Origin: a virus
Taxonomy: Duplodnaviria > Caudoviricetes
Length of the DNA: 39,312 bases
Strand: one strand, 5' to 3'
Virus record (IMG/VR): IMGVR_UViG_3300048851_000228
Coordinates: 1 to 39,312 of that record
Shown here: positions 3,429-33,976 of the stretch, in pieces
Numbering within the stretch: position 1 is the first letter of the stretch
How the letters are laid out: every line of letters begins with the position of its first letter
Position numbers and translations under genes: made by a program
Notes under the pieces: model-generated
What the model saw: the letters and a program-made list of their open reading frames with translations, nothing else
Database searches by the model: none
What the model was told of the DNA's origin: nothing

Positions 3429-4203
3429 TGTTTCCCCCTCCCTGCAACAAGAGGCGGATGGCGGCGGCACACTCTTCAGCCTCGACAGCTTTGAACGCAT
3501 TGATCTCAGCCTGATTGTCTTCGTACATGCGTATCCGACCAGCGGCCCGCTCATCACAGACCTTCGCAGCTGCCTCGATCGCCAGCGCCACCCCTTCGTC
3601 ATCCCCTGCCGCAACGGTGGCGAGAGATTCAACCGTTACGGTTTCCGCAACAGTTGCCTTTGTTTTCGCCAGGGCATCCGACAGGCGCGGGCCGATCCAG
3701 TCGAGAACGCCAATCGCGACCTGCGCCTCGTCCGGCTCTACGAACACGCCATTGACCGTCGCACCGCCCGCAGCAATGATCTGCGTCCACCTCACACGAC
3801 TGGCTGCTGCATCGTCGCTGATGCGCTTGACCGCCTTTCGTAGCTCAGCCTCCCCCACCACTGGCATCGCCGCTTTCAACGAAACGTCGTGTTCGTGACA
3901 TCCGGTTGCCGCACTTTGCACATCGGTTGAAAGTGATGGGGGTGGTGGGGTTTGATCATCGACGTAACACGCATCGCATCCGGTATCGTGACCGCCTTGG
4001 GAAACGACCTTCGTGCCGTCGCAGGCAGGGCACTTCGGCGTTGGCAGTGCCTGCGGGGAGATGGCGGCAATAACGCGATCGGCAGCACGAAAAGCAGCGT
4101 CGCGGCGTGCCTGGCGATATGTGGCCAGCCCGTCTTCATCGAACGCAACCAGATCGATTTGCCGTGCTATCGTTGCGCGCAACTCGGGGTTGGGATTGGT
4201 CAT
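3412..4203 (-). CDS. Mosaic phage hypothetical protein
   Basis: 263-aa ORF with CPACDG..C..C knuckle and a C-terminal EAAAKVCD...EECAAAIR segment. Confidence 0.6.
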   Translation of the reverse strand: MTNPNPELRATIARQIDLVAFDEDGLATYRQARRDAAFRAADRVIAAISPQALPTPKCPACDGTKVVSQGGHDTGCDACYVDDQTPPPPSLSTDVQSAATGCHEHDVSLKAAMPVVGEAELRKAVKRISDDAAASRVRWTQIIAAGGATVNGVFVEPDEAQVAIGVLDWIGPRLSDALAKTKATVAETVTVESLATVAAGDDEGVALAIEAAAKVCDERAAGRIRMYEDNQAEINAFKAVEAEECAAAIRLLLQGGGNNADPS

Positions 4204-4844
4204 GCGGCGATCCTTTGCGACTGGATTTGCGCCATCAACTGGAGGCCGATGTGCTTGGTGTAGGCGGGCGGGATAGCCTCGCGCAGACCGTCACGAGATG
4301 CCCACGGCATTCCCATGATATCGCGTGCCGTGCCGACACCAGAGAAGTTGCCGACAACGTGCATGAACTCCCCATCGCGGATCGGTCGCCCCATTTTACG
4401 GGTAGGGGCAACATGCGGAGGGTGCGCCGGCGCTTTGATCAAGAAGTTGGCTTCAAAGAGCCGGTGCCGATAGGTGCGCAGTCCAAACATAGCGCCACAA
4501 AGCACAACCGGGTCGAGCAAGGGCGCGCCCTGAACGTTTTCGATCACGTAAGGCAAGCCGGACATGGCAAGCAGTCTACGTATGGGGCTCACCAAGTCGG
4601 GATGCTCGTTATTTTGGACCCGCTGCGCCAAGGTATACCGCTGGCATGGGGGGCTTGCGTGGATAGCGTCGAATGTGCGGATGAAGCGCATATCCACAGC
4701 GGTCGCATCCATTTGGATGAAACCGAACGGATACCGTGGCTGCGGGTCGATATCGACACCCACCACGTCGAACCCGGCTTCGTGGTAGCCTGTTGCCGCG
4801 CCGCCTTCACAGCAGAATAGGTCTAATATCCGAAGACGGCTCAC
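4200..4844 (-). CDS. Solitary short C5-cytosine DNA methyltransferase
   Basis: Motif I LDLFCCEGG, motif IV SPPCQ, motif VI IENV, motif VIII RHRLF, C-terminal EAIPPAY. No cognate restriction endonuclease nearby. Confidence 0.85.
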   Translation of the reverse strand: MSRLRILDLFCCEGGAATGYHEAGFDVVGVDIDPQPRYPFGFIQMDATAVDMRFIRTFDAIHASPPCQRYTLAQRVQNNEHPDLVSPIRRLLAMSGLPYVIENVQGAPLLDPVVLCGAMFGLRTYRHRLFEANFLIKAPAHPPHVAPTRKMGRPIRDGEFMHVVGNFSGVGTARDIMGMPWASRDGLREAIPPAYTKHIGLQLMAQIQSQRIAA

Positions 4845-8492: not shown

Positions 8493-8539
8493 GGTCTATT
8501 GCCCCAGCTTATATTATGTCAATGGCTTATATTCTAAGC
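8493..8539 (-). promoter_or_regulatory. Leftward early promoter (PL-like) with operator sites
   Basis: Minus strand CCA-TTGACA-TAATATAAGCTGGGGCAA-TAGACC (-35 at 8522-8517). GCTTATATT at 8507 and 8525; near-palindrome GCTTA-N5-TAAGC at 8525-8539. Confidence 0.75.
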
Positions 8540-8974
8540 CTCGTTAGTTATCCATAGGTAAGATCCAAGCAGAGCTAGGGCTGCGCCGAAAAGGGTGGCG
8601 TAGCCCTTGGATACTAGCGCCGAGAATAGAGTTTCCGGATACTCGTTGTAGGGTGCGACCGTCAGGGACCACGCCATCACGCCGAGCCCGACGACGACTA
8701 CAAGAGCAGCCCGTTTCTTCAGTGTTCTCATGATTGCGGTCCTACGCCTGGGATCTGCAGCTATAACTGCAAAAGCGAATATCAGAATGAGGCTTATCCC
8801 CGCCACATAGTTGGGCGGTGCTGCCTGTGGGGTCGTAGGTCGGGGCACTCCTGGACCAACATCCTGCGGCGTCGGAAGGTACGTTCCCAGTGGGCCGATG
8901 TTGTCGCTCGTGGCCGGCTTCGTGGCCACTGCTGCTGCGCGTCCCACCAAGCCATCACGTGGAGCGATGTGCAT
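8534..8974 (-). CDS. Three-TM membrane protein coupled to the repressor; candidate superinfection exclusion protein
   Basis: TGATG overlap with the repressor stop. Pro-rich N-tail, three hydrophobic helices, basic loop RRR...KKR after TM1. Visibly more A/T-rich than the structural genes. Confidence 0.75.
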   Translation of the reverse strand: MHIAPRDGLVGRAAAVATKPATSDNIGPLGTYLPTPQDVGPGVPRPTTPQAAPPNYVAGISLILIFAFAVIAADPRRRTAIMRTLKKRAALVVVVGLGVMAWSLTVAPYNEYPETLFSALVSKGYATLFGAALALLGSYLWITNEA

Positions 8975-9333
8975 CAAGCCGCTTGCTTGCGTCGTTCAAC
9001 CTCGCGGGAGGGTAGCGGTTCCGCAACGCGGCGTATCATCTCACGTTGGTTGTCGCCAGCTGCGCGAAACTGCGCGATCAGGTCGCGCTCTTCGGCACTA
9101 AGGCGATCGGGGTTATCGGCGTCGGTAAGGAGGTCGGCTGGCGTACAGTCGAACTCCCGAGCGAGTACGCGCATGCGTGCGATGTCGAGCGAGAGGCCGT
9201 CCTGGTTCTCGATCTGACTGATGTAAGGTTGAGAAACGCCACTACGCTGGGCCAGTTCTGACTGACTCAGTTTCGCCTGCTTGCGCAGTTCCCTGATGCG
9301 ATTGCCCGGATGCATGGTGAAGACATATGCCAT
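8974..9333 (-). CDS. CI-like XRE-family repressor (no S24 peptidase domain; start 9333 or 9315)
   Basis: NRIRELRKQAKLSQSELAQRSGVSQPYISQIEN HTH; divergent from the Cro-like gene. Confidence 0.9.
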   Translation of the reverse strand: MAYVFTMHPGNRIRELRKQAKLSQSELAQRSGVSQPYISQIENQDGLSLDIARMRVLAREFDCTPADLLTDADNPDRLSAEERDLIAQFRAAGDNQREMIRRVAEPLPSREVERRKQAA

Positions 9334-9417: not shown

Positions 9418-9678
9418 GTGTCTGGTTTGAAATTGGCGGCGTGGCGTAAACGGGAGGGCAAAACGCAAGAGTGGCTTGCGGCCGAGCTTGGCTGCAGCCA
9501 GCCTTACGTCTCGCAGATCGAGCGCGCGCAGGACGCGATCATCCCCGGCGCCGACATCATGGAACGCGTTTTCATCGTGTCCGAGGGCGCAGTCGAGCCC
9601 AACGACTTCTACGACGTGCCTCGCTGGCGCCGGGCGCTGTCTGCGGCGCTGGCGGCCCTGACCGGCAAGGCCGCGTGA
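9418..9678 (+). CDS. Cro-like XRE HTH protein
   Basis: LAAWRKREGKTQEWLAAELGCSQPYVSQIER...V.PNDFY; first gene of the rightward operon. Confidence 0.9.
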   Translation: MSGLKLAAWRKREGKTQEWLAAELGCSQPYVSQIERAQDAIIPGADIMERVFIVSEGAVEPNDFYDVPRWRRALSAALAALTGKAA

Positions 9679-9927
9679 TGGAAATTGCAGGATCCTGGCA
9701 GTCATTCTCCGACTCCTTAGCGGACTTCGTTCCGCGTTCTGTTCTTGATTCGTTCCAAAATCGCGCCGCAAGTCCAACATGTCAAGGAAGCTGTCGTGAG
9801 TAGCGGTGTGCCGCCCCGCCACTTCCTTACAACGCCAGGGCGTGCGCCAGCGCGGACCCGACGGACGTCGGCGCGCGCCGGCCGGCATATGCGACGCCCC
9901 ACCGGCACCTGGAGAAAGGCTTTCCGC

Positions 9928-10056
9928 ATGATCCCCGAGCCTTTTGTCGCGCCGTTTCCGCCACAAGCACAGATCGCATGCAAGGTTGTGGGCGCAGTCG
10001 CGTCCTGGGCGCTCGCCCTGTCTCCTTGGTTGGCCGTTGGATGGCTAAAGCTGTGA
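9928..10056 (+). CDS. Small membrane-type peptide
   Basis: RBS GGAGAAAGG; MIPEPFVAPFPPQAQIACKVVGAVASWALALSPWLAVGWLKL*; stop overlaps the primase GTG. Confidence 0.4.
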   Translation: MIPEPFVAPFPPQAQIACKVVGAVASWALALSPWLAVGWLKL

Positions 10057-11141
10057 CGGCTGCCCCCGTCATATCGGTGCGCGAGATTGAAATGCAGCTG
10101 CGCACGCGCTGTGAAAGCGTCGTGCGGCAGTGCCTGCCAAATGCGATCAAGGATGGTCCGTATCTGAAGGTTGGCTCGATCACGGGCGAGAAAGGGCGCA
10201 GCCTGGTCGTGCCGCTGCAAGGCGCGTCGCGCGGTATGTGGACGGATTATTCGTCGAGCAACACTGGCGATATGATCGGCATGATCGAGCAGACAATGTT
10301 CGGTGGCGATCGCGGCCAGGCGGTGGCCTGGGCGAAGAGCTGGCTCGGTATCGACGACCTCGACCCCGGCCGGCTGGCGACGATGCGCGCGGAAAGCGCA
10401 GCGCAGGACCTGGCGGCGGACAAGGCGGCTGCGCGCGAGACGGAAGCGAAGAAACGCGGTGCTCGGGCCCTTTGGTTGAACGCCAAGGCACTGTCTGGCG
10501 TAGACCCTGCATCGCGTTACCTGGCGAACCGCGGCATCGATGTCGGGCGCCTCGGCGATTGGCCGGGGTCGCTGCGCTACCATGACCAGGTGTGGAACGT
10601 AGACGTCCGCGGCAAGATCGATTGCATGGTCGCCACGATGGTCACGCCCGCCGGCGTCCAGGTCGCAACGCATCGCACCTGGCTGGGCCGCGATGCCGAT
10701 GGCGTGTGGGTGAAGGCAGACGGCGCAGACCTGGGCGTGCCGCGCGGATCCGCCAAGAAGGTGCTGGGCAAGTCGGGCGGTTCGTTCGTGCCAATCCGCA
10801 AGGGTGCCAGCGGCCGCAGCATGGCGGACCTGCGCGGCCCTGAGACGATCTATGTCGCCGAGGGCATCGAGGATGCGCTGACGGTGGCGATGGTGAAGCC
10901 CGAGGCGCGCGTCGTCGCGGCATATTCGCTGCGCAACCTCGGGTTCATTCAATTTCCGGAGGCGATCACGACGATCGTCATCGTCGCCGATCGCGACGAA
11001 GGCCAGCGCGAGATCGATGCGCTGGAGGCGGCGATCGCGCGGCAACAGGCCCGTGGCCACAAGGTTCAGATCGTCATGCCACCCGTCGGGGTGAAGGACG
11101 TGAACGCGTGGCTGCTGGCGGATTTGGAGCGTGCAGCGTGA
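10053..11141 (+). CDS. TOPRIM-domain DNA primase
   Basis: YLANRGI, ATHRTWL, KKVLG, YVAEGIEDALT, IVADRD, GVKDVN. Confidence 0.88.
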   Translation: MTAAPVISVREIEMQLRTRCESVVRQCLPNAIKDGPYLKVGSITGEKGRSLVVPLQGASRGMWTDYSSSNTGDMIGMIEQTMFGGDRGQAVAWAKSWLGIDDLDPGRLATMRAESAAQDLAADKAAARETEAKKRGARALWLNAKALSGVDPASRYLANRGIDVGRLGDWPGSLRYHDQVWNVDVRGKIDCMVATMVTPAGVQVATHRTWLGRDADGVWVKADGADLGVPRGSAKKVLGKSGGSFVPIRKGASGRSMADLRGPETIYVAEGIEDALTVAMVKPEARVVAAYSLRNLGFIQFPEAITTIVIVADRDEGQREIDALEAAIARQQARGHKVQIVMPPVGVKDVNAWLLADLERAA

Positions 11142-11377
11142 CCTCGACCCCGACCATTCGCGAAATAGGCGTCGGCCGTAACTATCTGCTGGCCCTGCCT
11201 CTGGGCGAGGCGATCGCCCAGCATCGCGCCTGGGCATCGTCGCAGATGATCGAGATCTCGCGCGTCGAGGTCGGCGAGCCGGGCAAGGTGCCCGGGTTCG
11301 TTCTGCTGATCGCATTCGGCCCGACGACCGACATCGAGGCGGCTTGGCTCGACACGTTCTTCGAGGTTGATGCGTGA
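11138..11377 (+). CDS. Hypothetical protein
   Basis: GTGA overlaps on both sides, between primase and helicase. Confidence 0.6.
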   Translation: MTSTPTIREIGVGRNYLLALPLGEAIAQHRAWASSQMIEISRVEVGEPGKVPGFVLLIAFGPTTDIEAAWLDTFFEVDA

Positions 11378-13308
11378 CGAAGCGCGCACCCGACAACGTC
11401 GTCTCGATTGCGGCCGCGCTGGACGCGCCGATCGACGCGCCGGACATGGCGAAGCCCGGCGACCAGGCACCGCTGGGCGGCCGCGACGATGACGACGATC
11501 TCGACCGGCCGCAGATCCCGAAGGAATGCCCGGTCAAGGCGCTGGGCGTCGGGCCGGACGGCCAGATCTGCTACTACCTCAACAATCTCGGGCAAATGGT
11601 GAAGCTCGGACCGCGCGATCACGGCAAGAACAACCTGCACGTGTTGTTCTCACCCCGGACCCATCTGCTCGCGAAATACTGGCCGCGCTGGTCCGCGCCT
11701 GTCTACGAAGGGCGCGGCAATGCGCGCGTCATGGTCAAGCCGAGCGAAATCGTCGGCTTCGCGCAGGATGACGCGAGCGAGGCGCTGATCAGCGCATGCG
11801 GCGCGGCCGGGATCTTCGATCCGCAAGGGCGCGTGCGCGGGCGCGGTGCACATAAGGGCAGCGGCCGCGTGCTGATCGTCCACCTGGGCGACAAGATCAT
11901 GTCGGCGCAGCGGACGGCGACCGGCAAGCCCAAGCCGCTCGACTTTCAGGATCCCGGCCTGATCGGCCGCTATGTCTATCCGGCCGGCGAGCCGTCCCCC
12001 CGGCCCTGGCATCAGCCGGTCAAGGAAGACGTCGGCGAGGCGCTGCTGGCGCTGCTGTCGACCTGGCCGTGGCAACGATCATTGCTAGATCCCATGCTGT
12101 CGCTCGGCTGGGCGTCTCAGGCGTTCATTTGTGGCGCGCTGGACTGGCGATCGCATCTGTTCCTCACGGGCGGTCGTGGCACCGGTAAGTCATCGTTGAA
12201 CGGTAAGAACGGTTTGTTCGATCGATTGCTGGGCAAAGGCGTGCTGCGCACCGGTGGCGCAAGTGAGGCGGCCGTTCGCCAGAAGCTCAACCAGCAAACA
12301 ATTCCCGTGATGTTTGATGAATTCGAGCCGAACGAATTCAATGCGAGCAAGTTAAAGGCGGTCATTGAGCTGGCGCGTATTGCGTCGTCGGGCGACGAGA
12401 TGAGCAAGGGTGGGCAAGACCACCAGGCGCATGACTTCATGCTGCAGAGCGCGTTCATGTTCTCCGCGATCCTGAAGCCCAAGATGGAGCCGCAGGATCA
12501 GAGCCGGTTCGCCGTGCTCGAACTGAAGCCCCTGCCCGAAGATGCGCGGCCGCTCGACCTCGATGCCGCCAAGTTGCCCGAGATGGGCCAGAAGCTGATG
12601 CGGCGCATGATAGATGGCTGGCATCGCTACGCCGAGACATACAGCGCGTACCGCAAGGCGCTGGCTGGGGTAGGTCATGACGCGCGGGCCCAGGATACCT
12701 TCGGGTCGTTGCTCGCATGTGCGGATCTCGCGCTGTACGATCATGTCCCCGATCCGACCCTGCTGGAATTCTGGGCGCGGCAGTGTGACCCTGAAGGCCT
12801 AGCGGAGATCGCTGACGGCACGACGGAACATGGCGCGTGCCTGAAGTTCCTGACGACGACCAGCGTGCAGGCGCGGGGCGGCGAGGATCGCCAGACACTT
12901 GGCACATGGATCGGCAATGCGATGCGCGACGTCGACCAGCTCGACGGCGATCACGACCACCGAAAGCGCGACAAGAAGCGGCTGCAGGAGATCGGGCTGA
13001 AGGTCGTCAACGCACGGGAACTCGATCCCGACGACAAGGGGCGACCGCGCTGGGGAGCCACCGATTATTCACCGGGAAAGCCCGGCTTCCTCGCTGTCTC
13101 GATCTCGCATCGTTCGCTGACTGAGATCTTTCGCGACAGCAAGTGGCGTGATGGCGGCTGGACGCAGGCGCTCGGCCGTGCGGACGGCGCGATCCCGCGC
13201 GTCAAAATCGCGTTCGGCTTCTCCAAAGAGTGGGCCGTCCTGGTACCGCTGGACGACGAGATCGACATGGCCGGGCGCGATGGCGACGGCGATCGGGGGG
13301 CAGCGTGA
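11374..13308 (+). CDS. P-loop replicative helicase (SF3/primase-associated type)
   Basis: Walker A LTGGRGTGKS, Walker B VMFDEFE, QSRF possible Arg finger; follows the primase. Confidence 0.8.
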   Translation: MTKRAPDNVVSIAAALDAPIDAPDMAKPGDQAPLGGRDDDDDLDRPQIPKECPVKALGVGPDGQICYYLNNLGQMVKLGPRDHGKNNLHVLFSPRTHLLAKYWPRWSAPVYEGRGNARVMVKPSEIVGFAQDDASEALISACGAAGIFDPQGRVRGRGAHKGSGRVLIVHLGDKIMSAQRTATGKPKPLDFQDPGLIGRYVYPAGEPSPRPWHQPVKEDVGEALLALLSTWPWQRSLLDPMLSLGWASQAFICGALDWRSHLFLTGGRGTGKSSLNGKNGLFDRLLGKGVLRTGGASEAAVRQKLNQQTIPVMFDEFEPNEFNASKLKAVIELARIASSGDEMSKGGQDHQAHDFMLQSAFMFSAILKPKMEPQDQSRFAVLELKPLPEDARPLDLDAAKLPEMGQKLMRRMIDGWHRYAETYSAYRKALAGVGHDARAQDTFGSLLACADLALYDHVPDPTLLEFWARQCDPEGLAEIADGTTEHGACLKFLTTTSVQARGGEDRQTLGTWIGNAMRDVDQLDGDHDHRKRDKKRLQEIGLKVVNARELDPDDKGRPRWGATDYSPGKPGFLAVSISHRSLTEIFRDSKWRDGGWTQALGRADGAIPRVKIAFGFSKEWAVLVPLDDEIDMAGRDGDGDRGAA

Positions 13309-13504
13309 TGCGCCTGGTGCCAACGCATGCAGCCAGCGATGCGCAGCATCGCGACCGGGCTGCATTCATCATCAACTTATCCTCCCGCGATGACGTCTAT
13401 CGACGCGCGCACCACGTCTTCTCCTTTATTTGTGCCCCGACCCCGGCCCATTGCTTCGCAGAGAATTGGCGTGCTAGGTCTCGCTGCGCCGATGGGTCCG
13501 GGGG

Positions 13505-13764
13505 GCGGTTCCAAAGTTCCAGCGCGGTTCCAAGCCGTGGAACTAGCAAGCGTTTGAAATGGCAGGATAATTGCGCCGGTTCCACAGGTTCCAAGGTTTT
13601 TGCCTCACGTAATGCGCGTGCGTGCATGCGTACAGGCGCATGCGTATGGGGATATCTTAGTTTCCTTGGAACTCTGGAACTATTCAAGAATACCAAGGTA
13701 AAAGAGCGTCTTAGCGGTTCCAAAACCGGTTCCACGGCGGTTCCAAGCCTCGAACCTTGGAACT
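13505..13764. repeat. Iteron cluster / putative phage replication origin
   Basis: 12 copies of GTTCCA: forward at 13508, 13516, 13527, 13579, 13588, 13717, 13729, 13740; reverse at 13538, 13667, 13675, 13758. A/T-rich spacers; just downstream of the helicase. Confidence 0.75.
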
Positions 13765-14457
13765 GCGCCGACGCGCTCGCTCGCCAAGTCACTGAGATCG
13801 CTACGCATCCGATTAAAATATGGGGTGGATATGTCGCGACGACGTCCGCGCCGTCCGCCAGTGCGGATCAGGGGCTAGATACAGGGGGTGCGTGCGCAAA
13901 GTTTCAGGGCCGGAACGCGCTCGGCCTGGTCGTCGACGGCCTCGATCTGGGCGATCGCGCCGGGCGGCCGGCCGAGGGCAGAAATGGCGGTTTTCCGCCG
14001 TTTTCTGTGGTCGCGATTGGGCGTGTTGGAACGGCCGTGTTGGAATGCGCGGCGAATGTCGAGGCAGATCAAGGCTTTGCGGATGACCGTGCGCAGCCTG
14101 CGGGGCTGGACGGTGCCGCCTCGGCCGGCCTGGGCGGCAGGGGGGTGGTCGATGCCGATCGGCAGGGGGTGGCCCCCCCCAGCGGCCCGCGTTTCTCTCC
14201 TAGCTCCAAGGCGTAGGCGATTTTTCTCGTTTCGACAGCCTTTCGAATTGCTGGATCGCCAGTCGCGCCTGTTGGGCGGGACGGTCGCTTAAATTCCTAC
14301 GTCGAAATGGGGTCGGGGGTTTGTATTCTGTCCCTAGCTAGCCGTGATCGGCGCGAGGGCGCGGATCATCAAAGGCTCGAGCGGGTCGGGGGACAGATTG
14401 AGGTCCTGGGCTGGGGGCGTAGCGCGGAAACGTCGACGCTATGGGGAGGGCTGACCT

Positions 14458-15063
14458 GTGTCAACTGACCTCACCGGCGATGCCGCGATCGGCCGCGAGA
14501 TCATGACCGATGTCCAGGCGCAGCTCGATGCCGAGCGCGTCGAGGAAGAACAGCTCGATCTGCTCGATCCGATCACGCCCGAGGATATCTGGGACGCCCG
14601 GGAGGCGTTGGGTGACAACGCGAGCGCGATCGAGGTCACCAACGAGGCGCGGAGCCGCAAGCGTGGACGCCCCAAGGGAGCGCGCAATCGGAAGTCGACG
14701 GACCTTGAGCGATGGCTGCTGGCGCATGGGCAGCATCCGGCCGTCACACTGATGCAGATCCAGTCGGCCGCTCCGGAAACGCTGATGGAGGCATCCAAGC
14801 GGCGCAAGGTCCATAGCTTCCGGAAGGACGGCACGGCGAACGTCGTCATGGAGCACATGACCTACGAGGCCGCGCAGGCGTTGCGCGCCCGGTGCGCCGA
14901 TATGCTCATGCCATACCTGCTCGGAAAGAAACCGATCACGGTCGACATGAACTTCAGCGGCGTCACGGATCTGGTGTTCCAGGGCTATTCGTCGGGTGAA
15001 GGCGACACCGCCGTAATCGCGGACGCCGAGTTTCTCCCTGTCGAAGAGGATGACGCGGCATGA
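14458..15063 (+). CDS. Probable terminase small subunit
   Basis: Directly upstream of and ATGA-coupled to TerL; GRPKGARNR basic motif. Confidence 0.65.
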   Translation: MSTDLTGDAAIGREIMTDVQAQLDAERVEEEQLDLLDPITPEDIWDAREALGDNASAIEVTNEARSRKRGRPKGARNRKSTDLERWLLAHGQHPAVTLMQIQSAAPETLMEASKRRKVHSFRKDGTANVVMEHMTYEAAQALRARCADMLMPYLLGKKPITVDMNFSGVTDLVFQGYSSGEGDTAVIADAEFLPVEEDDAA

Positions 15064-16673: not shown

Positions 16674-16674
16674 A

Positions 16675-16914
16675 ATGGCTTTGTTGAAACCCGTGGGGAA
16701 GATCCTCGGTGGCGTGCTGAAGGCGGTCGGCGTGGTGTCCACACCCGGCAAGGCGCCGACGCCGCTCAAATCGGTGACGCGTGACGATGCTGCAGGCTCG
16801 ATTGCGGCCGACGACGAATTGCGACGCCGCCAGGGCGCGGCCGCTGACATCATCACCGGATCAGGCGGCGCCGAGGCCGCTCTCACCGGTGGCAAACTCA
16901 CCCTCGGCAGCTGA
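16675..16914 (+). CDS. Small virion protein upstream of the portal
   Basis: MALLKPVGKILGG...LRRRQGAAADIITG...KLTLGS, like small pre-portal podovirus proteins. Confidence 0.65.
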   Translation: MALLKPVGKILGGVLKAVGVVSTPGKAPTPLKSVTRDDAAGSIAADDELRRRQGAAADIITGSGGAEAALTGGKLTLGS

Positions 16915-16925
16915 AGGAGACACCC

Positions 16926-17075
16926 GTGGACCAGGACAACAGGCGCGATCGCGAACTGAAGGAAGAGTTTGCAGCCGCGCGCGACCCGGAAAGCCCGGCG
17001 GTGCTGAAGGAGCGGATCGACCAGCTCGAAGAGCGGATCGTCTCCATCGAACACGCCACCCACACCAACGTCTGA
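16926..17075 (+). CDS. Small coiled-coil protein (49 aa, not in the ORF track)
   Basis: RBS GAAGGAG; VDQDNRRDRELKEEFAAARDPESPAVLKERIDQLEERIVSIEHATHTNV*. Confidence 0.6.
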   Translation: MDQDNRRDRELKEEFAAARDPESPAVLKERIDQLEERIVSIEHATHTNV

Positions 17076-17086
17076 AAGTTAAAATC

Positions 17087-17815: not shown

Positions 17816-17821
17816 TCATCC

Positions 17822-25849: not shown

Positions 25850-26298
25850 CCGTGCAGATTGCAGCGATGCTTCCCGCCGACATGATCGAGATCCAGCGCC
25901 AGGCGTCGCAGCTCGTGCAGCTGGGGATCGAGCGCGAAGTCACGATTGAGGAAGCCGAGGCGATCGCCGATGGACCGGGCGAAGCGTGGACCGCGCGGCA
26001 TCAAGGGCGGATCGTCGCATGTCTGGGCCTGCGCGAGACGTTCCCCGATCGGCAGGCGGTCGCGTGGGCGGTGCTGGCAGAGGGTGTCGGCGCCGCGCAC
26101 TTCGCGATCACGCGGTTCGCCCGTGCGCGGATCTCGGCCAGCCATCTCGGCCGGATCGAGGCGATCGTTCGCCAGGCCGTGCCGGCGGAAGGTGCCTGGG
26201 CGAGCCTGGTAGGATTGGCGCCGGCGCATGTGCTGCGGTGCTTTGGAGCGATGGGCGAAACGCATATCCTGTGCGAGCGCATCCGGGAGGTGCGATAG
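25846..26298 (+). CDS. gp13-like / GNAT-fold assembly protein
   Basis: Sits between nozzle and ejection genes; GRIVAC.G...AWA...RIEA.V pattern. Confidence 0.6.
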   Translation: MTVQIAAMLPADMIEIQRQASQLVQLGIEREVTIEEAEAIADGPGEAWTARHQGRIVACLGLRETFPDRQAVAWAVLAEGVGAAHFAITRFARARISASHLGRIEAIVRQAVPAEGAWASLVGLAPAHVLRCFGAMGETHILCERIREVR

Positions 26299-26744
26299 TG
26301 GCTGAAGGTATGCAGGCGGCCGGCCAGGTCATAGGCGGCGTCGGGCAGTACGAGGCCGGCAAGTACAACGCGAAGGTCGCCAATACGCAGGCGATCGAAC
26401 TGGAACGCGCCGGCGCGTCCGAGGAAGAGCGCGTGCGCGAGGCGGCGCGGATGCAGATGGGGCAGCAGATCGCGGCGCAGGCCGGCGGTGGCTTCCAGAT
26501 CGGCACGGGATCCGCGCTCGACGCACTGACGCAAAGCCAGGTGAACGCCGCGCTCGACGCGCTAACGATCCGGCGCGAGGCGGCTGGCCGTGCGCGTGCG
26601 CAGCGGATCTCGGGCGCGATCGCGAAGTCGCAGGGTGAGAACGCGCTGGTTAGCGGCATGCTTGGCGCGGCAACGACGATCGCCAACACCAACGCGGACT
26701 GGGCTGCAGCGCGACAGGGTACGACGGCGAGAGGCGGCCACTGA
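26298..26744 (+). CDS. Small internal virion (ejection) protein, gp14-like
   Basis: GTG overlapping the upstream TAG; Ala/Gly/Gln-rich, G.Q.A..AGGG...GTGSALD motif. Confidence 0.75.
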   Translation: MAEGMQAAGQVIGGVGQYEAGKYNAKVANTQAIELERAGASEEERVREAARMQMGQQIAAQAGGGFQIGTGSALDALTQSQVNAALDALTIRREAAGRARAQRISGAIAKSQGENALVSGMLGAATTIANTNADWAAARQGTTARGGH

Positions 26745-28750
26745 TGCCACAGGAGCAGGGTTACGAGCGCCGTGTAGGGTCTGTTACCCCGGCCGCCCTT
26801 CCGCAGGCCTCAGCGGCCGCCTTCGGCGCGGGTATCGGACAAAGCGTTTCCGAAATGGGAGACGTGCTGCACCGGCGCGACGTTCAAAAGTACCAGATCG
26901 AGCGCCAACAGACTGCCGATAGCGAGTCTGCCGACGCCGCACTTAAATTGGCAGATGTGCGTCAGCGCCTCGATGCGGCACGTGACCAGGCCCGCGCAGC
27001 GCCCGACGCCGGCGCGGCAGGGCATGTCGCGGCGATGGAAGCGGCGTTCGATCGGGAAGTGTCGGGGATCACGGACGGCATCACCGAAGACCGCGTGCGC
27101 CGAAACCTTTCGACCCAGATCGCCGACTATCGATCGAATTTTGTCAGCGGTGAGAACACCTGGAAAACGGTGTACGCTGCGAAGACCAGTGTCACCAACC
27201 TTGGCGTCTTGAACGAGAAGGCGTCGGCGCGCGTCTTCATGAGCAGCGATCCCAACGTCTACGGGCAAGAGAGCACTGCCTGGGATGATGCTGTCGATAC
27301 GCGATCCGACATAGGCGCGGACCAAAAAGAGGCCGTTCGTCGAGATGGTCATGCGGCGTTGGCCATCGCCTATGCGGGTCGGCGAGAACGGGACGATCCG
27401 AAAGGCCTGATTTCTGACATTGACGGTGGATCGTTCAACGACGTCCTTGACGCAAAGCAACTCGATCGCCTTCGTGCTGGTGCCGAGGCGCAGGTCCGGA
27501 TGGTCGAAGCGCAGCAGAAAGCACTCGCGGCCGCACAGGTGACAGCGACGCGCGAGCAGCTTGCGACCAAGCGTGCAGAACTCGATACCGGCGCGGGCAA
27601 ACCGCAGGATTGGGCGACGCTCGCGCAGCAGTATGAGGCGATCGGCGACACGTCCGCGGCTGTCACCGCTCGTGCAGCAGGCGAGGCGAAGATGGCAGCG
27701 CTTACCCATCAGGGCGATGGAATGGATGCGCTTGATAGCCAGATTTCGACACTTACCGCGAAGCAGGGGCGCGGCGGTCTGTCGACCGCCGAGGCGGCGA
27801 CGCTTACGGGGATAACGGCGCTTCGTAGCCAGAAAGCCCAACGACTGGGACAGCCAGGTGGCGCCTTGCTCGATATGGAGTTCATGACTGGCCGGCCGAT
27901 CGCGCCGCTCGATCCGGCGGATCCTGCATCGGTTCGGCTTCGCGGGCAGCAGGCGGCGCAGGCTGCGCAGTTGGCGGGGCGGCCGAACGCGATCGAGCCG
28001 TTCAAGCCGACCGAACTGCCGGCGATGAAGGACCTGATGGAGAACGGCGCCGGCGGGCGCATCCAGGTGCTGCAGACGCTGGCCGCGTTCGGCGATGCGC
28101 GCGTGATCGATGGCGCAGCGCGACAGGTGTCGGGCAGCGGCGACGGCGCGTTCCGGGTCGCGTCGCGCATGTTGACCTATCCGGCCGGGCAAGCAGTAGC
28201 GACAGCGATCGTTCGCGGCGACGAGCTGCGCGGCAAACAGCCCTGGCCGGAGAAGGCTCAACGTCAGGCGCGGGCGGATTTCATGAAATATTATGGGGGC
28301 GCCATGCGTGGCGGCGACCTCCCACCGGGATTCGTCAACGATCTGTTCGATGGTGCGATGGGGTTCTACGCGAGCCGCGCGAACGGTGGCGCGTATGATG
28401 CCGGCCGGTTTGCTGAAGCGACCGAGGCGGTGCTGGGGCGGAACGGCGGGCGCGGTGGTGTTGCGCGTGTGCCCGGGCAGGGCATCGTCATCGCCCCGCC
28501 AACGATGTCGCCGGAAGCCATGATGACGCGCTTCGCGCGGGCTAAGGGGGAAGACTATCAGGCGGCAGCCGGGGGTAGAGCGCCTGTCTATTCGGATGGC
28601 TCACACCTGACACGCGGCGCGCTGCGAACGATGTTGCCGACCATGCTTGCCGATGGCCGCTATGGCTTTCGTGGCGCGAACGGCGCGTTGTTGCATGACG
28701 ATCGCGGCGGGATCTACGCCGTCGACCTGCACCGCCTGCCCGCGCGATGA
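26744..28750 (+). CDS. Internal virion (ejection) protein
   Basis: 668-aa Ala-rich helical ORF in the ejection block; TGATG-coupled. Confidence 0.7.
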   Translation: MPQEQGYERRVGSVTPAALPQASAAAFGAGIGQSVSEMGDVLHRRDVQKYQIERQQTADSESADAALKLADVRQRLDAARDQARAAPDAGAAGHVAAMEAAFDREVSGITDGITEDRVRRNLSTQIADYRSNFVSGENTWKTVYAAKTSVTNLGVLNEKASARVFMSSDPNVYGQESTAWDDAVDTRSDIGADQKEAVRRDGHAALAIAYAGRRERDDPKGLISDIDGGSFNDVLDAKQLDRLRAGAEAQVRMVEAQQKALAAAQVTATREQLATKRAELDTGAGKPQDWATLAQQYEAIGDTSAAVTARAAGEAKMAALTHQGDGMDALDSQISTLTAKQGRGGLSTAEAATLTGITALRSQKAQRLGQPGGALLDMEFMTGRPIAPLDPADPASVRLRGQQAAQAAQLAGRPNAIEPFKPTELPAMKDLMENGAGGRIQVLQTLAAFGDARVIDGAARQVSGSGDGAFRVASRMLTYPAGQAVATAIVRGDELRGKQPWPEKAQRQARADFMKYYGGAMRGGDLPPGFVNDLFDGAMGFYASRANGGAYDAGRFAEATEAVLGRNGGRGGVARVPGQGIVIAPPTMSPEAMMTRFARAKGEDYQAAAGGRAPVYSDGSHLTRGALRTMLPTMLADGRYGFRGANGALLHDDRGGIYAVDLHRLPAR

Positions 28751-31365
28751 CCGACCAGCGTAGCGGTCCGCTAGCGACCTACCTGCCAACGCCTAGCCCG
28801 CAAGGGCCTGGCGTCCCGAAGCCGATCGAGCGGCCGACGCTGGGCCAAGTGTACGACGCGGCAACGACGACGTCACGCGCCGACCTGCCCAGTGCGGAGC
28901 GCGATCGACTGTACGAGGCGTACAAGCCGATCGTCGATGAACTCAACCAGGGACGATCGTGGTTTCGCCGCTATCACAACCCCGGCGCTGGCGGCGCAAA
29001 CTTCGAGACGTACCTGTTCAACGACGACGGCAATCCCGTGGCGTCTGCACCTGGTGCTGAAGCGCAGGAAGAGCATCTGTGGCGGGCGATCGACACGGCG
29101 CGGCAGGCCAATCCCAAGGCCTTCCCGGGTGTGCCGGCGACGCGCGACGATTTTCACACGCAGATCCTGAACAATGCCAAGGCGAAACTGCGTGGCGCGC
29201 GCGAGACGATTGGCCGGAACGATAGCTGGGCCGGCACCGGCGCCGAGATTGCCGCGGGCGTCGCGACTAGCTTTCGAGATCCGGTCAACATCGCCGCGAT
29301 GCCGATCGGCGGTGTCGGGCGCAGCGTCGCTACGCGGATCGTGACGTCGGCGCTGGCGAACATGGCGGTCGAGGCTATCGAGCAGCCGATCGTCGCCAAC
29401 CAGCGCGAGAAGCTGGGCGAGACGCTGACCGGTCGGGAAGCGGCGATCAACATCGGCGTGGCGGGCCTTTTCGGTGGTGGGCTGCAGGGCGTCGGTGAAG
29501 TCGCCGCGCCGGTACTGTCTGGCGCGATCGGTCGCGGCCGGGCGCTGGCGGCCGACGCGCGCGCCAAGATTGGCTGGGAGAACATGACACCGCCCGAGAA
29601 GGTGGCGGTGCTGTCGCTGGAGCGTGATGCAGACATCGCGGCGACCAGTCCTTTCAAGCCGGGTGCCGGCACCGATGCCCATGTCAACCGGATCGAGAAG
29701 ACCGTCGCTGGGCTGAAGGCGGGCGAAGGCGTTCCCCCGCCGGCGCCGGCGCGGTCGTTCAATTTTCAGACCTATGCCAATCGCACCGGCGTCGCGGAGA
29801 ATGGCGGCAAGTGGCAGGGCGGCACGGCGACCTCGTCCGCGTACGGCATGTACCAGATCACGCGGGACACGTGGCTGCGATTTGCCGAGAAGGCGAGGAT
29901 CAAGGGCGTCGACGATGCCGCCACCTGGGACAAGCGGACGAACCCGGCCGCGCAGGAGGCGGTGTTTACGGCGATCACGAACGAAAACCGGGCAGCGTTG
30001 GCGCGTGCCGGTGCGCCGGAAACTTACGGCAATCTGTACCTGATGCACTTCGCCGGCAGCGGCGCCGGCGCGAAGATCCTGAAGGCCGCACCTGGTACGC
30101 CGATCGAGCGCGTGCTGTCCGAGCGCGCGATCGCCGCGAACAAGTTCCTGCGGGGCAAGTCGACCGACGACGTCATCGCCTGGGCGCACGCCAAAATGGG
30201 CGAGACGCCAAGCGAAGGGCCGGTGTTATCGCGCAGCGGTTTCGACGAGCACGACGCCGGCGACGCGGAGTGGCGGAACGCCCAGGCGGAAGTCGAGGCG
30301 GCCGAGCGCCAGATCTCCGAGGCGAACGCGGCCGATGTCGACGACGCCATGCCGCGATCGGTGGATGACGACGTGCCGTTCGATCTGGACGATCCTCGCA
30401 GCACCCGAGGCGGGCCGCAGCGCGATCCGTTCGCCGACCTGCCTGACGACATGGTCGACGCGACACCGGTCCGCATTGATGCAGCGATGGACGCCGAGCC
30501 GGTGCGGCCGACCCTGTCGCAAGTCGAAGCGCAGGATCTCGAAACGCGAGGGTTGGGACCCGCGTCCGAACTGTCGTTCGTGAGTAAGGAAGGCCCGCCG
30601 GGCGTGTCGTTCGTCAATGAGGACGGCAATTACGCGACCGCAGTCTACCGCAACCAGAACGGCGCGGCACGTGGAATTGTCCGGATGCCGATCAGCGATG
30701 AAGCGCGCGAGATCGGCAACGAAGTCAGCAGCTATGTCGCGCCCGAGCTGCGCCGCCAGGGCATCGCGACCCAGCTGTACGATAGCATCCGCGAAAACGG
30801 TTTCGACGTCGATCGCCTTAGCGGCACCGCAGACCTGACCCCCGATGGTGCCGCGTTCGTTAATGCCCGTCGCGCACGGCCGGCTGATGCGCCGACGCCG
30901 TCGACCGTCCCCAAGCGGTATCAAGATTGGCAGTCACCGAACGACGAGCTCGAAACGCACTGGCGCTACCAGGCGGAAACGCCGGAAGGTGCGCAGCCGG
31001 TATGGGCAATGCGGGATGCCGATGGCGCGATCGTCAAATGGGCGCCGGCCGAGCGAACGATACGGCGCGAGCTGGACCGCGAATTCTTCCCCGAGAATTT
31101 TACTGTCGAGCAGGTGTCGCCGACCACGCGTGCGCCGGATGTGGAGCCGGCGCCGACGGCAATCGCCGGGTTCGATCATCCGGACGATGTCGCCGCGACG
31201 CGACAGATCGATAGCATGGTCCACGATCTGAAGATGCTCGTCGACCAAGCGCCGGACATGCGCGTGCGTGTCGGTGATGACGGCGAGGATCATCCGCTGG
31301 CGGACGTGCTCGCCGATCTGGACGGCGACGAGGCCGCGATCGAGGCCGCGCGGCGGTGTATGTGA
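28747..31365 (+). CDS. Internal virion (ejection) protein with lytic-transglycosylase-like domain and GNAT-like module
   Basis: Hydrophobic Gly/Ala segments; AENGG...SSAYGMYQITRDTW...LYLMHFAG.G; YVAPELRRQGIATQLY. Confidence 0.8.
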   Translation: MTDQRSGPLATYLPTPSPQGPGVPKPIERPTLGQVYDAATTTSRADLPSAERDRLYEAYKPIVDELNQGRSWFRRYHNPGAGGANFETYLFNDDGNPVASAPGAEAQEEHLWRAIDTARQANPKAFPGVPATRDDFHTQILNNAKAKLRGARETIGRNDSWAGTGAEIAAGVATSFRDPVNIAAMPIGGVGRSVATRIVTSALANMAVEAIEQPIVANQREKLGETLTGREAAINIGVAGLFGGGLQGVGEVAAPVLSGAIGRGRALAADARAKIGWENMTPPEKVAVLSLERDADIAATSPFKPGAGTDAHVNRIEKTVAGLKAGEGVPPPAPARSFNFQTYANRTGVAENGGKWQGGTATSSAYGMYQITRDTWLRFAEKARIKGVDDAATWDKRTNPAAQEAVFTAITNENRAALARAGAPETYGNLYLMHFAGSGAGAKILKAAPGTPIERVLSERAIAANKFLRGKSTDDVIAWAHAKMGETPSEGPVLSRSGFDEHDAGDAEWRNAQAEVEAAERQISEANAADVDDAMPRSVDDDVPFDLDDPRSTRGGPQRDPFADLPDDMVDATPVRIDAAMDAEPVRPTLSQVEAQDLETRGLGPASELSFVSKEGPPGVSFVNEDGNYATAVYRNQNGAARGIVRMPISDEAREIGNEVSSYVAPELRRQGIATQLYDSIRENGFDVDRLSGTADLTPDGAAFVNARRARPADAPTPSTVPKRYQDWQSPNDELETHWRYQAETPEGAQPVWAMRDADGAIVKWAPAERTIRRELDREFFPENFTVEQVSPTTRAPDVEPAPTAIAGFDHPDDVAATRQIDSMVHDLKMLVDQAPDMRVRVGDDGEDHPLADVLADLDGDEAAIEAARRCM

Positions 31366-31378
31366 CGAAGGATAGATC

Positions 31379-33976
31379 ATGTCGCTAGGTGCCTGCATTC
31401 CCGACATGCTGAAGCGGGGCGAGATCGATCCCACACGGGCGGCGCGCATGAAGACGTTGTTCGAGGAACTCGAACGCCAGTACCGCACCCGGATGTCGCC
31501 GGCAGCGGCCGCGGCCGAGGCCAGCGAAAAGACGCTGACCAAACTCGTCTACGAGGCTCGGCTGAAGAAGCGGCAGACGTTGCTGCAGGTAACGGCCCAG
31601 CACCGGATCTTGCGCGACATGGAAGGCTTCGCGGGCGGTGGTCACGACAAATATCGTTCGGCCGCGGCCGCGGTGTTCGATCGCGACTGGAAGGGGCGAG
31701 CCCAGTATAGCAGCATCGAGGGACGCCGGCGCGCGATCGTCGGCCAGGCGCATGCGATGATGGTCGACGTGCTCGAGCGTCACAAACGCAACTTCGTCAC
31801 CGGTGGCGAGCGCAACAAGGCGGACCTGGTCGACCTCGAACGCGAGGCGTTCGGCGAGGACAGCGGCAATGCGGCCGCCAAGGAACTCGCTGCGGCGTGG
31901 GACGAAACGGCCGAGTGGCTACGCCAGCGCGCGAACGCGGCCGGCGCCGATATTGGCAAGCTCGACAAATGGGGCTTTCCCCAGCGCCACAATTCGCAGG
32001 CGATCCGCGAGGCGGCCGATGCCAGCCCGGAATATCGCGCGCTTGATGCGGAGCTGAAGCTGGCGCGCAGCGAGGGGCGCAAGGGCGACGCAACGCGGAT
32101 CGGCGAACGGATGGTCGACATGGCGTCGCAGACCTGGCGCGACTTCATCACGCCGCGCTTGGACCGGTCACGCATGATCGACAAGACCACGGGCGAGGCA
32201 TTCACTCCCGAGGCGCTAGACACAGCCCTGGACGGCGTCTTCCGGACGATCCGCACCGACGGCTGGGAAGGTCGCGCCCTGGGCGCAATGGGCGGCAGCA
32301 AGCTCGCTAGCAGCCTGAGCGAAGAACGCTTCCTCATCTTCAAGGATGCGGCCGGATGGACCGACTATAACGAACGCTTCGGCGCAGGAAATTCGTTCGA
32401 GGCTATGAACGGTCATATCGAACGAATGGCGCGCGACGTCGCGCATATGGAGTTGTTGGGCCCAAGCCCGGCCGCGCAGGTCAAGTGGATGAACGACCTA
32501 ATCGAGAGCAAGCGGCAGCTGACCCCGGACAGCAAGGCAACCGGGCAGAAAGCGGACGGTCTGTTGGTGTCGATCGACAACCTGTTCGCGACGACGTCAG
32601 GCGCTCTGTCGGCACCGGTCGATCCGAAATTCGCCAAGCGCATCGGATCCGCGCGCAACCTGCTCGTCTCCGCCCAGCTCGGCAGCGCCGTGGTGACGGC
32701 CGTGCCGACCGACATCGCGTTTTCGACACTCGCTCGGATATATCGCGGGTTGCCGATCATGCGCGGCGCGTTCGAGTTCGCCCAGCTGCTGAAGTCGGGC
32801 GATCGTCACGACGCGATCGCGTCCGGCCTGATCGCCGAGGAAGCCAGCCGGTCGCTGCAATCCGGCAACAGGTTCGTCAATGACGAACAGATCGGCGCGA
32901 AATCCGGATGGCTGGCGGAGCGCGTCATGAACCTGTCGCTGATCGCGCCCTGGACGCAGAACGCACGGTGGACGTTCGGGCGGGGCATGCAGGCCGAGCT
33001 GGGCAAGCAAGCCGCCCGACCGCTGGACCAGGTGCCGGCGCGCTTCCAGCGGATGCTCCGCGAGTATGGCTTCAGCAACGGTGAGTGGGAGCAGGTCCGC
33101 AAGACGCCGCTGTCCAATGGCGTGTTCCTGGAACCGATGCAGATCGAGAACCGCGGCTTGCGGGATCGCATGCTCGAAATGATCCTGATGGAGACCGACG
33201 GCGCGATCCCGGCCACTACCGTGACGGGGCGTGCGGCGCTGTCGTTCGGCCAGCGACCGGGCTCTGCAGGCGGCGAGTTCCTGCGCAGCATCGGGCAGTA
33301 CAAGTCGTTCGGCGTCAGCCTGATCCAGATGCAGGCGGGGCGCATCATGGCGGAGAAGGGGGCAGGTAATAAGCTCCTGTACCTGGCGGGCCTCAGCGCG
33401 TTGGGCACGGCGGGCGGACTGATCGCCAACTGGGCCCGCGACATCCGCAGCGGGAACGATCCCCAGCCGCTCGATGAGGCCTCGATCGGCAAGGCGTTCC
33501 TGACGGGTGTCGGTTTCGGCGTGTTCGGCGACTACCTGACGGCGGTGACCAGCGATCGCGCCGGCGCCTGGCCCGCGGCGGTCGCCGGGCCGCTCGTTGG
33601 TGCGACCGGTGAGTTCGGCGAGGTCGCGGTCGGATCCGCGATCGAGACCTACAAATGGGCCAAGGATCCCGACGAGGACGATGACGGCACGTCGAAGACA
33701 TGGAACGAGCAGACCCATGCCGGCCGCAAAGCCGTGCGCCTGGTCAAGCGGTACGCACCTGGTACGAACATCTGGTATGCTCGCAAAGCCGCCGAGGTGA
33801 TGTTGTGGGACCAGCTGCAGTACCTGTTCGATGACAACGCCCAGCAATCGTTCGACCAGGCGTCGCGCAATCGTGAGCGCGATGGGCGTGCCGATTGGTG
33901 GCAGCCGGGCCAGATGGCTCCCGGCCGGGCCCCGAACCTCGACCTCACGCGTGATCGAGATCCGAATAAGGAATAG
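31379..33976 (+). CDS. Large internal virion (ejection) protein, gp16-like
   Basis: 865-aa helical ORF with late hydrophobic segments (LLYLAGLSALGTAGGLIA; GVGFGVFGD); last of the ejection block. Confidence 0.75.
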   Translation: MSLGACIPDMLKRGEIDPTRAARMKTLFEELERQYRTRMSPAAAAAEASEKTLTKLVYEARLKKRQTLLQVTAQHRILRDMEGFAGGGHDKYRSAAAAVFDRDWKGRAQYSSIEGRRRAIVGQAHAMMVDVLERHKRNFVTGGERNKADLVDLEREAFGEDSGNAAAKELAAAWDETAEWLRQRANAAGADIGKLDKWGFPQRHNSQAIREAADASPEYRALDAELKLARSEGRKGDATRIGERMVDMASQTWRDFITPRLDRSRMIDKTTGEAFTPEALDTALDGVFRTIRTDGWEGRALGAMGGSKLASSLSEERFLIFKDAAGWTDYNERFGAGNSFEAMNGHIERMARDVAHMELLGPSPAAQVKWMNDLIESKRQLTPDSKATGQKADGLLVSIDNLFATTSGALSAPVDPKFAKRIGSARNLLVSAQLGSAVVTAVPTDIAFSTLARIYRGLPIMRGAFEFAQLLKSGDRHDAIASGLIAEEASRSLQSGNRFVNDEQIGAKSGWLAERVMNLSLIAPWTQNARWTFGRGMQAELGKQAARPLDQVPARFQRMLREYGFSNGEWEQVRKTPLSNGVFLEPMQIENRGLRDRMLEMILMETDGAIPATTVTGRAALSFGQRPGSAGGEFLRSIGQYKSFGVSLIQMQAGRIMAEKGAGNKLLYLAGLSALGTAGGLIANWARDIRSGNDPQPLDEASIGKAFLTGVGFGVFGDYLTAVTSDRAGAWPAAVAGPLVGATGEFGEVAVGSAIETYKWAKDPDEDDDGTSKTWNEQTHAGRKAVRLVKRYAPGTNIWYARKAAEVMLWDQLQYLFDDNAQQSFDQASRNRERDGRADWWQPGQMAPGRAPNLDLTRDRDPNKE

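What the first reader, a model, noticed from the sequence alone, without database searches (positions are those of the whole stretch)
8837..8896. Repressor-coupled membrane protein carries a copy of the phage's own ejection-protein N-terminus: candidate superinfection exclusion by mimicry
Seen: the 3-TM protein (8534-8974, minus strand, TGATG-coupled to the CI-like repressor) contains GPLGTYLPTPQDVGPGVPRP. Residues 7-26 of the ejection protein at 28747 (nt 28765-28824, plus strand, about 20 kb away) read GPLATYLPTPSPQGPGVPKP. The match is 15/20 identical and ungapped, with conservative G/A and R/K changes. Thirteen of the 15 identical residues use different synonymous codons (only Tyr TAC and one Thr ACG are shared), which points to protein-level selection rather than a recent DNA duplication. 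Established: genes co-transcribed with the repressor are expressed in lysogens, and P22 SieA is an inner-membrane protein that blocks DNA entry at the ejection-protein step. Inference: the lysogen displays a membrane-tethered decoy of the ejection protein's N-terminal peptide. The decoy could poison assembly of an incoming ejection conduit or occupy the host factor that peptide binds. I know of no described exclusion protein that is a sequence mimic of its own ejection protein.
Basis: partly seen in the sequence, partly recalled or inferred. Interest (0 to 1): 0.95.

Follow-up and report, generated by a model that had tools for sequence, protein, structure and literature searches.

The report
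Membrane decoy of phage injection peptide
A small predicted membrane protein encoded beside this phage's repressor carries a copy of the first residues of the phage's own likely DNA-injection protein, five related phages carry copies matched to their own different versions, and the copy likely acts as a decoy that blocks DNA entry by rival phages.

Summary
Observation confirmed. The match is 15/20 identical, with 2 of 15 codons shared; none of 200,000 shuffles reach its score. The predicted within-genome co-variation also holds. In 6 of 42 related phage records (window included), a small membrane ORF carries a copy of the first 20-30 residues of that phage's own ej3 protein. These score 57-91; the other 36 score 39 or less. 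The six peptides are largely unrelated to each other, sit on at least four anchor types at two loci, and are scattered over the portal tree. Other late proteins are not copied (0 of 3,241 windows). All six tails are predicted to face the periplasm. The upstream neighbour ej2 weakly matches T7 gp15-type tunnel proteins by fold. Best reading (0.65): superinfection exclusion by an allele-matched decoy that competes with the incoming ej3 N-terminus, probably for ej2. Exclusion, expression and binding are untested, and the complex predictor was unavailable. It is not a SieA family member. I found no such decoy in print. The scan noted the same idea earlier on other phage DNA (seven unchecked AI notes).

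The parts
8534..8974 (-). Candidate decoy: 146-aa protein with a 54-residue N-tail and three predicted TM segments. Member of an unnamed membrane family (alignment A1).
   Evidence: no PHROG or PADLOC hit; only a sub-threshold Pfam hit
8837..8896 (-). Copied peptide, residues 27-46 (the local alignment extends to residue 22, nt 8911)
8974..9315 (-). CI-like HTH repressor; its stop overlaps the decoy's ATG (TGATG)
   Evidence: one weak sigma70-like site at 9370-9342, at chance level
9418..9678 (+). Divergent Cro-like HTH gene
26298..26744 (+). ej1, internal virion protein (gp14 position)
   Evidence: phrog_418, E=2e-18
26744..28750 (+). ej2, likely gp15-type periplasmic tunnel protein; inferred target of the peptide
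   Evidence: model pLDDT 84; top five Foldseek hits are PhiM1 and T7 ejectosome/core chains, best E=4.7e-3
28747..31365 (+). ej3, likely injected protein in the gp16-N position: unstructured N-terminus, helical domain, hydrophobic region, lytic transglycosylase, GNAT-like module, terminal Cys
28765..28824 (+). Original peptide, ej3 residues 7-26; hypervariable among ej3 homologs; pLDDT below 50 for residues 1-25
31379..33976 (+). ej4, virion structural protein, related to the phiV10 protein in the same position
   Evidence: phrog_684, E=4e-129

Best explanation
The 8534-8974 protein carries a copy of the N-terminal peptide of the phage's own ej3 protein on a predicted three-helix membrane anchor, and likely works as a superinfection-exclusion decoy in lysogens. 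Shown: the copy, its match to the resident ej3 allele in six phages, its specificity for the ej3 N-terminus, and repeated recruitment onto different anchors. Predicted: an N-out topology that displays the peptide on the periplasmic face of the inner membrane. Inferred: the gene is co-expressed with CI in the lysogen. Inferred: the ej3 N-terminus is a docking 'tape' that clamps the C-terminal end of the gp15-like ej2 tunnel as the conduit reaches the inner membrane. Inferred: the tethered copy occupies that site first, so the conduit is not completed and the DNA stays out. The block would be type-specific. It would cover heteroimmune phages that share the ejection type, such as G003 (ej3 N-terminus scores 89 against the decoy; CI only 48% identical). 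It would spare progeny assembled in the cytoplasm.
For: (1) Co-variation. 6 of 42 records (window, G814, G816, G817, G379, G836) have a small TM ORF scoring 57-91 against their own ej3 residues 1-45 (Z 6.6-15). The other 36 score 39 or less. Only 2 of 1,578 unrelated non-self pairs reach 50 (max 56). Each decoy's best target among the 42 is its own ej3; 100,000 label permutations give at most 3 matches against 6 observed. (2) The six ej3 peptides score only 17-45 against each other, so this is not one conserved motif. (3) Specificity: 0 of 3,241 45-aa windows of portal, capsid, nozzle, ej1, ej2, ej4 and terminase, and 1 of 911 other ej3 windows, reach 55. (4) Independent recruitment: the window and G816 share one anchor family but carry different tails. 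G814 and G817 have other anchors. G379 and G836 are about 60-aa single-TM peptides at another locus. The six are scattered over the portal tree. (5) Synonymous sites are saturated: 33 of 88 codons shared against 29 expected. (6) Positive-inside bias gives N-out in all six. G817 begins with a signal-peptide-like stretch (my reading of the sequence). (7) The ej2 fold hits are T7 gp15 and PhiM1 chains. In T7 an extended gp16-N 'molecular tape' cements gp15 (PMC8954989, passages). P22 SieA escape mutations map to gp16 and the C-terminal region of gp20 (PMC10883804). (8) Similarity of ej3 residues 1-30 tracks the ej2 C-terminal 250 aa (rho 0.34-0.36) more than ej4 (0.11-0.22) over 37 records.
Against: No experiment, and no direct evidence of binding. 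36 of 42 records lack a detectable copy, including close sisters (G003, G823, G827, G838). G415 has the same anchor family after CI with no tail. Of 7 Logan family members with tails, only P0056 matches a known ej3 N-terminus (score 54 to G814; 5 of 200 shuffles reach it); their own genomes were unavailable. The database gene call omits the motif. A 54-residue N-tail with no signal peptide must still cross the membrane. The ej2 fold match is below Foldseek's E=0.001 line. The ej2 co-variation is weak, uses non-independent pairs and is confounded by adjacency, since ej3 residues 40-170 track equally well (0.32). In T7 the tape is internal (residues 157-228), not N-terminal. No RNA covers the decoy gene itself. 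phiV10 has no copy.
Confidence: 0.65

Rival explanations
1. Exclusion by occupying a host factor. The ej3 N-terminus binds a host inner-membrane or periplasmic protein, and the tethered copy blocks that protein rather than ej2.
For: Same co-variation and topology data. Host inner-membrane proteins assist DNA entry for lambda (ManYZ; PMC13434031, passages). Hosts differ among the six, which could also explain the peptide differences.
Against: The peptide is hypervariable among phages found in one host genus. It stays fixed between the window and G003, whose ej2 C-termini are alike while their ej4 genes have diverged.
Confidence: 0.12
2. Sensor or helper rather than blocker. The tethered peptide captures incoming ej2 to report superinfection to the lysis-lysogeny switch, to trigger an abortive response, or to aid entry.
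For: Four of six decoys lie directly after the repressor, three of them overlapping its stop codon. The 3-TM anchor has invariant residues (R88, A90, G96, G130, G137, W141) and exists without a tail, so it has some role of its own.
Against: G379 and G836 are only peptide, one helix and a few basic residues, leaving no signalling domain. No partner gene is conserved beside the six.
Confidence: 0.1
3. Non-functional relic. Bits of the ej3 5' end are occasionally captured into an accessory slot and act only as spacer or linker.
For: The distribution is patchy (6 of 42). G814's copy starts at the start codon, as a captured gene end would. The slot after CI turns over rapidly.
Against: Synonymous sites are saturated while amino acids are kept. 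The same segment is taken every time and other late-gene segments are not. It is always fused in frame upstream of a TM helix. In the window, 3 of 5 mismatches fall in the 4 columns that vary among the five closest ej3 alleles (p=0.03; p=0.15 with seven alleles).
Confidence: 0.1
4. Chance or compositional (Pro/Gly-rich) similarity, or an assembly artefact.
For: Both peptides are Pro/Gly-rich; one whole-protein shuffle of 2,000 reached 82.
Against: Shuffle, non-self, control-window and permutation tests. Five more cases with different compositions. One public contig holds both copies.
Confidence: 0.01

Closest known systems
Phage P22 SieA (Leavitt et al. 2024, PMC10883804; abstract, most of the Discussion and passages read)
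   Same: Prophage-encoded, about 150-160 aa, three predicted TM segments, no signal sequence. Acts (SieA shown, here inferred) on the ejection-protein conduit at the inner membrane.
   Different: The FxRYPxEAxxFNK motif is absent and there is no profile hit. The passages read report no ejection-protein copy in SieA. Two SieA types 24% identical show the same specificity, whereas here each decoy is matched to its own phage's allele. The target is a T7/epsilon15-type module, not a P22-type one.
HK97 gp15, TP-J34 Ltp and Tuc2009 exclusion proteins (as described in the PMC10883804 Discussion; the name Ltp is recalled)
   Same: Membrane exclusion proteins that block DNA injection; for HK97 and TP-J34, escape maps to the tail tube or tape-measure genes.
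   Different: Their targets are long-tailed phages, and no sequence mimicry of the target is described in the passages read.
T7 gp15:gp16-N periplasmic tunnel and PhiM1 ejectosome (PMC8954989, passages; PDB 7k5c, 6yt5, 8vb2)
   Same: Gene order nozzle-ej1-ej2-ej3. The ej2 model's five best fold hits are these chains. ej3 has a lytic transglycosylase, as gp16 does.
   Different: The gp16 role appears split over ej3 and ej4. ej3 begins with an unstructured peptide and its transglycosylase is internal. T7 is lytic and has no such decoy (recalled).
Uetakevirus phiV10 / epsilon15-type temperate podophages
   Same: ej4 is 25% identical over about 92% of its length, with a four-gene ejection module in the same position.
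   Different: phiV10 has no second copy of any of five tested N-termini (best 39). Its annotated superinfection-immunity gene is an O-antigen acetyltransferase.

Membership tests
P22 SieA family | Inner-membrane protein with three TM segments and no signal sequence | tested here: inconclusive
   Hydropathy gives three segments; location not measured
P22 SieA family | Conserved FxRYPxEAxxFNK motif near the C-terminus (PMC10883804) | tested here: not met
   Absent from the sequence and from alignment A1
P22 SieA family | Sequence homology to known exclusion or defence proteins | tested here: not met
   0 of 12 family members hit PHROGs or PADLOC at E<=0.1; no match in the annotated phage collection; SieA itself was not aligned directly
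Superinfection-exclusion proteins (functional class) | Expressed from the prophage | tested here: inconclusive
   TGATG coupling to CI; one 196-nt RNA-library contig matches CI only, not the decoy
Superinfection-exclusion proteins (functional class) | Blocks DNA entry with adsorption intact | not testable with these tools
   Needs infection assays
T7 gp15-type tunnel protein (for ej2) | Elongated helical fold, position between the gp14-like and gp16-like genes | tested here: inconclusive
   Synteny met; the top five Foldseek hits are ejectosome chains with probability 0.47-0.99, but E>=4.7e-3 and TM<=0.30; no sequence hit
T7 gp16-type ejection protein (for ej3) | Follows the gp15-like gene; peptidoglycan hydrolase plus hydrophobic membrane segments | tested here: met
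   phrog_4067 E=4e-15; gp144 transglycosylase E=7e-10; hydrophobic region at about 160-260
T7 gp16-type ejection protein (for ej3) | Extended tape that binds gp15 | not tested
   The complex predictor was unavailable; residues 1-25 are unstructured in the monomer model

The most novel reading that the evidence does not exclude
Temperate podophages repeatedly build allele-matched entry immunity. They capture the hypervariable docking peptide of their own ejection protein, fuse it to whatever membrane anchor is at hand (as little as one helix in about 60 aa), and display it in the periplasm. This would be a second, modular self/non-self code independent of the repressor. It would drive the diversification of ejection-protein N-termini, and its specificity could be read from sequence and reprogrammed by swapping about 20 residues.
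Probability: 0.5. Interest if true: 0.93.

Novelty: new variant of a known kind. Interest (0 to 1): 0.86.

Why it matters
How SieA-type proteins stop the ejection conduit is stated as unresolved in PMC10883804. Here the inhibitor names its target in its own sequence, so the mechanism can be tested directly with a six-by-six matrix of decoys and ejection alleles. The copies also mark the first 20-30 residues of ej3 as a functional interface in conduit assembly. They would explain why that segment is hypervariable, and they predict exclusion groups from genomes alone. Gene callers truncate or may miss these genes (here the call dropped the motif), so the class is probably under-counted.

Tried and rejected
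Complex prediction of ej2 (residues 255-668, two copies) with the decoy tail was not available because the queue was full, so there is no result either way. The VIA structure comparison of ej2 was busy. Word-index homolog searches found only the window's own truncated protein or 3 known members. The ESM Atlas gave no usable hit. A DNA-pattern scan for the window's motif gave 3 viral, 64 metagenome and 59 genome stretches. Only the ej3 starts of G001 and G003 were real; the rest were chance matches, mostly in non-coding frames. A profile search for the anchor family found 0 of 401 and 1 of 401 (weak, E=2.7e-4, not inspected) genomes in the family around a Sphingomonas genome; a second pattern found 0 viral stretches. 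My early count of no copy in the first relatives suggested a one-off relic; this was overturned when more distant records were added. The idea that codon sharing is below chance was rejected: P=0.02 with phage-wide usage, 0.22 with uniform usage, and 33 of 88 against 29 expected pooled. The whole-record tblastn test missed G817, found by the slot and TM-ORF tests. RNA: one 196-nt contig of a soil metatranscriptome matches CI and none was laid on 9500-29400; this is too thin to show lysogen expression. Small-share runs X2 and X4 gave only short, diverged pieces, with no usable piece over the decoy. phiV10 was negative.

Full report
Context. The window is a 39.3-kb virus record of a temperate podophage. 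It carries integrase, CI/Cro, primase, terminase, portal, capsid, adaptor, nozzle, a four-gene internal-protein module (my labels ej1-ej4), tail fibre and endolysin. Its ej4 is about 25% identical to the phiV10 protein in the same position. Named members of related ej3 clusters come mostly from Sphingomonas, and the closest portals among cellular genomes were found in that genus, so the host is probably a sphingomonad (inference).

Observation. The 146-aa ORF at 8534-8974 (-) starts at an ATG overlapping the CI stop. Its residues 27-46 match ej3 residues 7-26 at 15 of 20 positions, with 2 of 15 codons shared and 33/60 nucleotide identity. It is the best of 703 protein pairs in the window (91; next 69). 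None of 200,000 shuffles of the 20-mer reach its score, and 2,000 whole-protein shuffles reach at most 82. One public contig spans both copies without a difference (possibly the source sample). The database's gene call starts at V57 and drops the motif. The ATG overlap and the long N-tails of homologs favour the longer start, but the start is not shown.

The anchor family. A full HMMER search found 13 proteins. One is the window's own truncated call and one is an unrelated repeat protein, which I dropped. The 11 others share a C-terminal hairpin with invariant R88, A90, G96, G130, G137 and W141, and have very variable Pro/Ala-rich N-tails. The ten looked up are Logan-only and unnamed. None of the 12 aligned hits PHROGs or PADLOC. 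Among the 42 records studied, the family occurs in 3: the window, G816 and G415, each directly after CI. G415's member has a tail of about 10 residues and no copy.

Co-variation test. I collected relatives by portal searches of viral contigs and of two samples of 401 genomes and by a pattern scan, and fetched their records. I kept 42 records, window included, with an identifiable ej3 start. Dropped were three duplicates with identical slots (G119, G597, G663), fetched records lacking the CI region or a usable ej3 (G001, G007, G291, G306, G821, G840), and short or more distant hits that were never fetched whole. Some long records were read only in part (for example G820, G827, G838 and G839 to 40 kb), and ORFs crossing stretch boundaries could be missed. 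For each record I aligned every 40-300-aa ORF with a hydrophobic helix (mean 8.9 per record) to residues 1-45 of every ej3. Six records score 57-91 against their own ej3; the other 36 score 39 or less. Of 1,578 unrelated non-self pairs, 2 reach 50 (max 56). Each of the six ranks its own ej3 first. Label permutation gives at most 3 matches in 100,000 trials. For the four CI-slot cases, 0 of 2,000 shuffles reach the observed score. The six ej3 peptides score 17-45 against each other.

Specificity and independence. Against the same TM ORFs, 0 of 3,241 45-aa windows from portal, capsid, nozzle, ej1, ej2, ej4 and terminase reach 55, and 1 of 911 other ej3 windows does. The copied span is always within ej3 residues 1-32. 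That is the hypervariable segment among homologs, and residues 1-25 are unstructured in the model (pLDDT below 50). The anchors differ. The window and G816 use the family above with different tails. G814 has a 3-TM anchor without a significant profile match, and G817 has a long tail behind a signal-peptide-like start. G379 and G836 are 62- and 60-aa single-helix peptides ending in basic runs, encoded downstream of the helicase gene (antisense to it in G379). The six are scattered over the portal tree, and close sisters (G003, G823, G827, G838) lack a copy. Codons are shared at 33 of 88 identical residues against 29 expected at saturation, so the match is kept at protein level. Lys/Arg bias places the tail outside in all six (prediction only). 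Most of the other CI-downstream slots hold small membrane or exported ORFs of other families, and a few are empty.

Target. The ej2 model (pLDDT 84) has PhiM1 and T7 ejectosome or core chains as its five best Foldseek hits, though none passes E=0.001. ej3 has a lytic transglycosylase. In T7, an extended gp16-N 'molecular tape' cements the gp15 tunnel (PMC8954989, passages). For P22, a 2026 preprint reports a prediction that the gp20 C-terminal segment wraps the gp16 N-terminal region (10.64898/2026.09.03.749273, passages). Across 37 records, ej3 residues 1-30 track the last 250 residues of ej2 (rho 0.34-0.36) more than ej4 (0.11-0.22) or portal (0.22). The window and G003 keep both peptide and ej2 end while ej4 diverges. 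Adjacent ej3 residues 40-170 track equally (0.32), so linkage could explain this.

Mechanism. I commit to decoy-type superinfection exclusion at the ej2/ej3 junction (0.65). Rivals are blocking of a host factor (0.12), a sensor or helper role (0.10), a neutral relic (0.10) and chance (0.01). The copy, its allele matching, its specificity and its repeated recruitment are shown. Topology is predicted. Expression, binding partner and exclusion are inferred. Against the reading: 36 of 42 records lack a copy, G415 keeps the anchor without one, only 1 of 7 tailed Logan members matches a known ej3 (weakly), phiV10 is negative, and no RNA covers the gene.

Comparison and novelty. It likely works like P22 SieA, an inner-membrane 3-TM protein whose escape mutants map to gp16 and gp20 (PMC10883804: abstract, part 1 of 2 of the Discussion, passages). 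It fails the SieA motif and homology tests. Six full-text searches for exclusion combined with ejection-protein, mimic, decoy, dominant-negative or ejectosome terms listed no paper describing such a decoy. I saw listings and abstract starts for these, plus passages of one 2026 review (PMC13434031). The library lacks most subscription papers, and no supplements were read. Passages of 10.64898/2026.02.16.706137 were used only for gene-order context. After the main result was in hand, the scan's index returned seven unchecked AI notes proposing the same idea in other phage groups; they are leads, not support. I rate this a new variant of a known kind, with a categorically new reading (a modular, allele-matched entry-immunity code) at probability 0.5.

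Noticed in passing
window 31357-31362 and 31394-31396 (ej3 C871, ej4 C6): ej3 homologs end in a conserved Cys (40 of 42 have one in the last 12 residues), and all 12 ej4 homologs listed have a Cys at position 6. A disulfide may join the two halves of a split gp16-like protein in the periplasm.
   Followed up: partly
window 29750-30950 (ej3 middle): The middle of ej3 swaps modules between relatives: transglycosylase or GH108 lysozyme (PF05838), and GNAT-like or PF18809 nuclease-like domains. This resembles the 'polyvalent proteins' of PMC5512222 (search listing only).
   Followed up: partly
CI-downstream slot in relatives (L006, L031, L033, L035, L037, L039, L041, L173, L176, L237): A hotspot for small, unrelated membrane or exported proteins in either orientation; each is a candidate exclusion gene without a copied peptide.
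   Followed up: partly
L179:11291-11479 (-) and L331:3869-4051 (-): A second accessory locus between helicase and terminase holds about 60-aa single-helix decoys; sister records G838 and G818 have other sequence there.
   Followed up: yes
window 9011-9206: A 196-nt contig from a soil metatranscriptome is identical to the CI gene; nothing from that run was laid on 9500-29400.
   Followed up: partly
L008:10445-13065 (G001): The ej3 gene of this close relative is interrupted by a frame change near codon 330, either an assembly error or a broken gene.
   Followed up: no
L007:4469-7531 (G001): In this record the integrase lies next to a 5'-truncated portal gene, so the immunity-replication-terminase block is missing.
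   Followed up: no
window 4200-4844 (-): C5 DNA methyltransferase in the early region.
   Followed up: no
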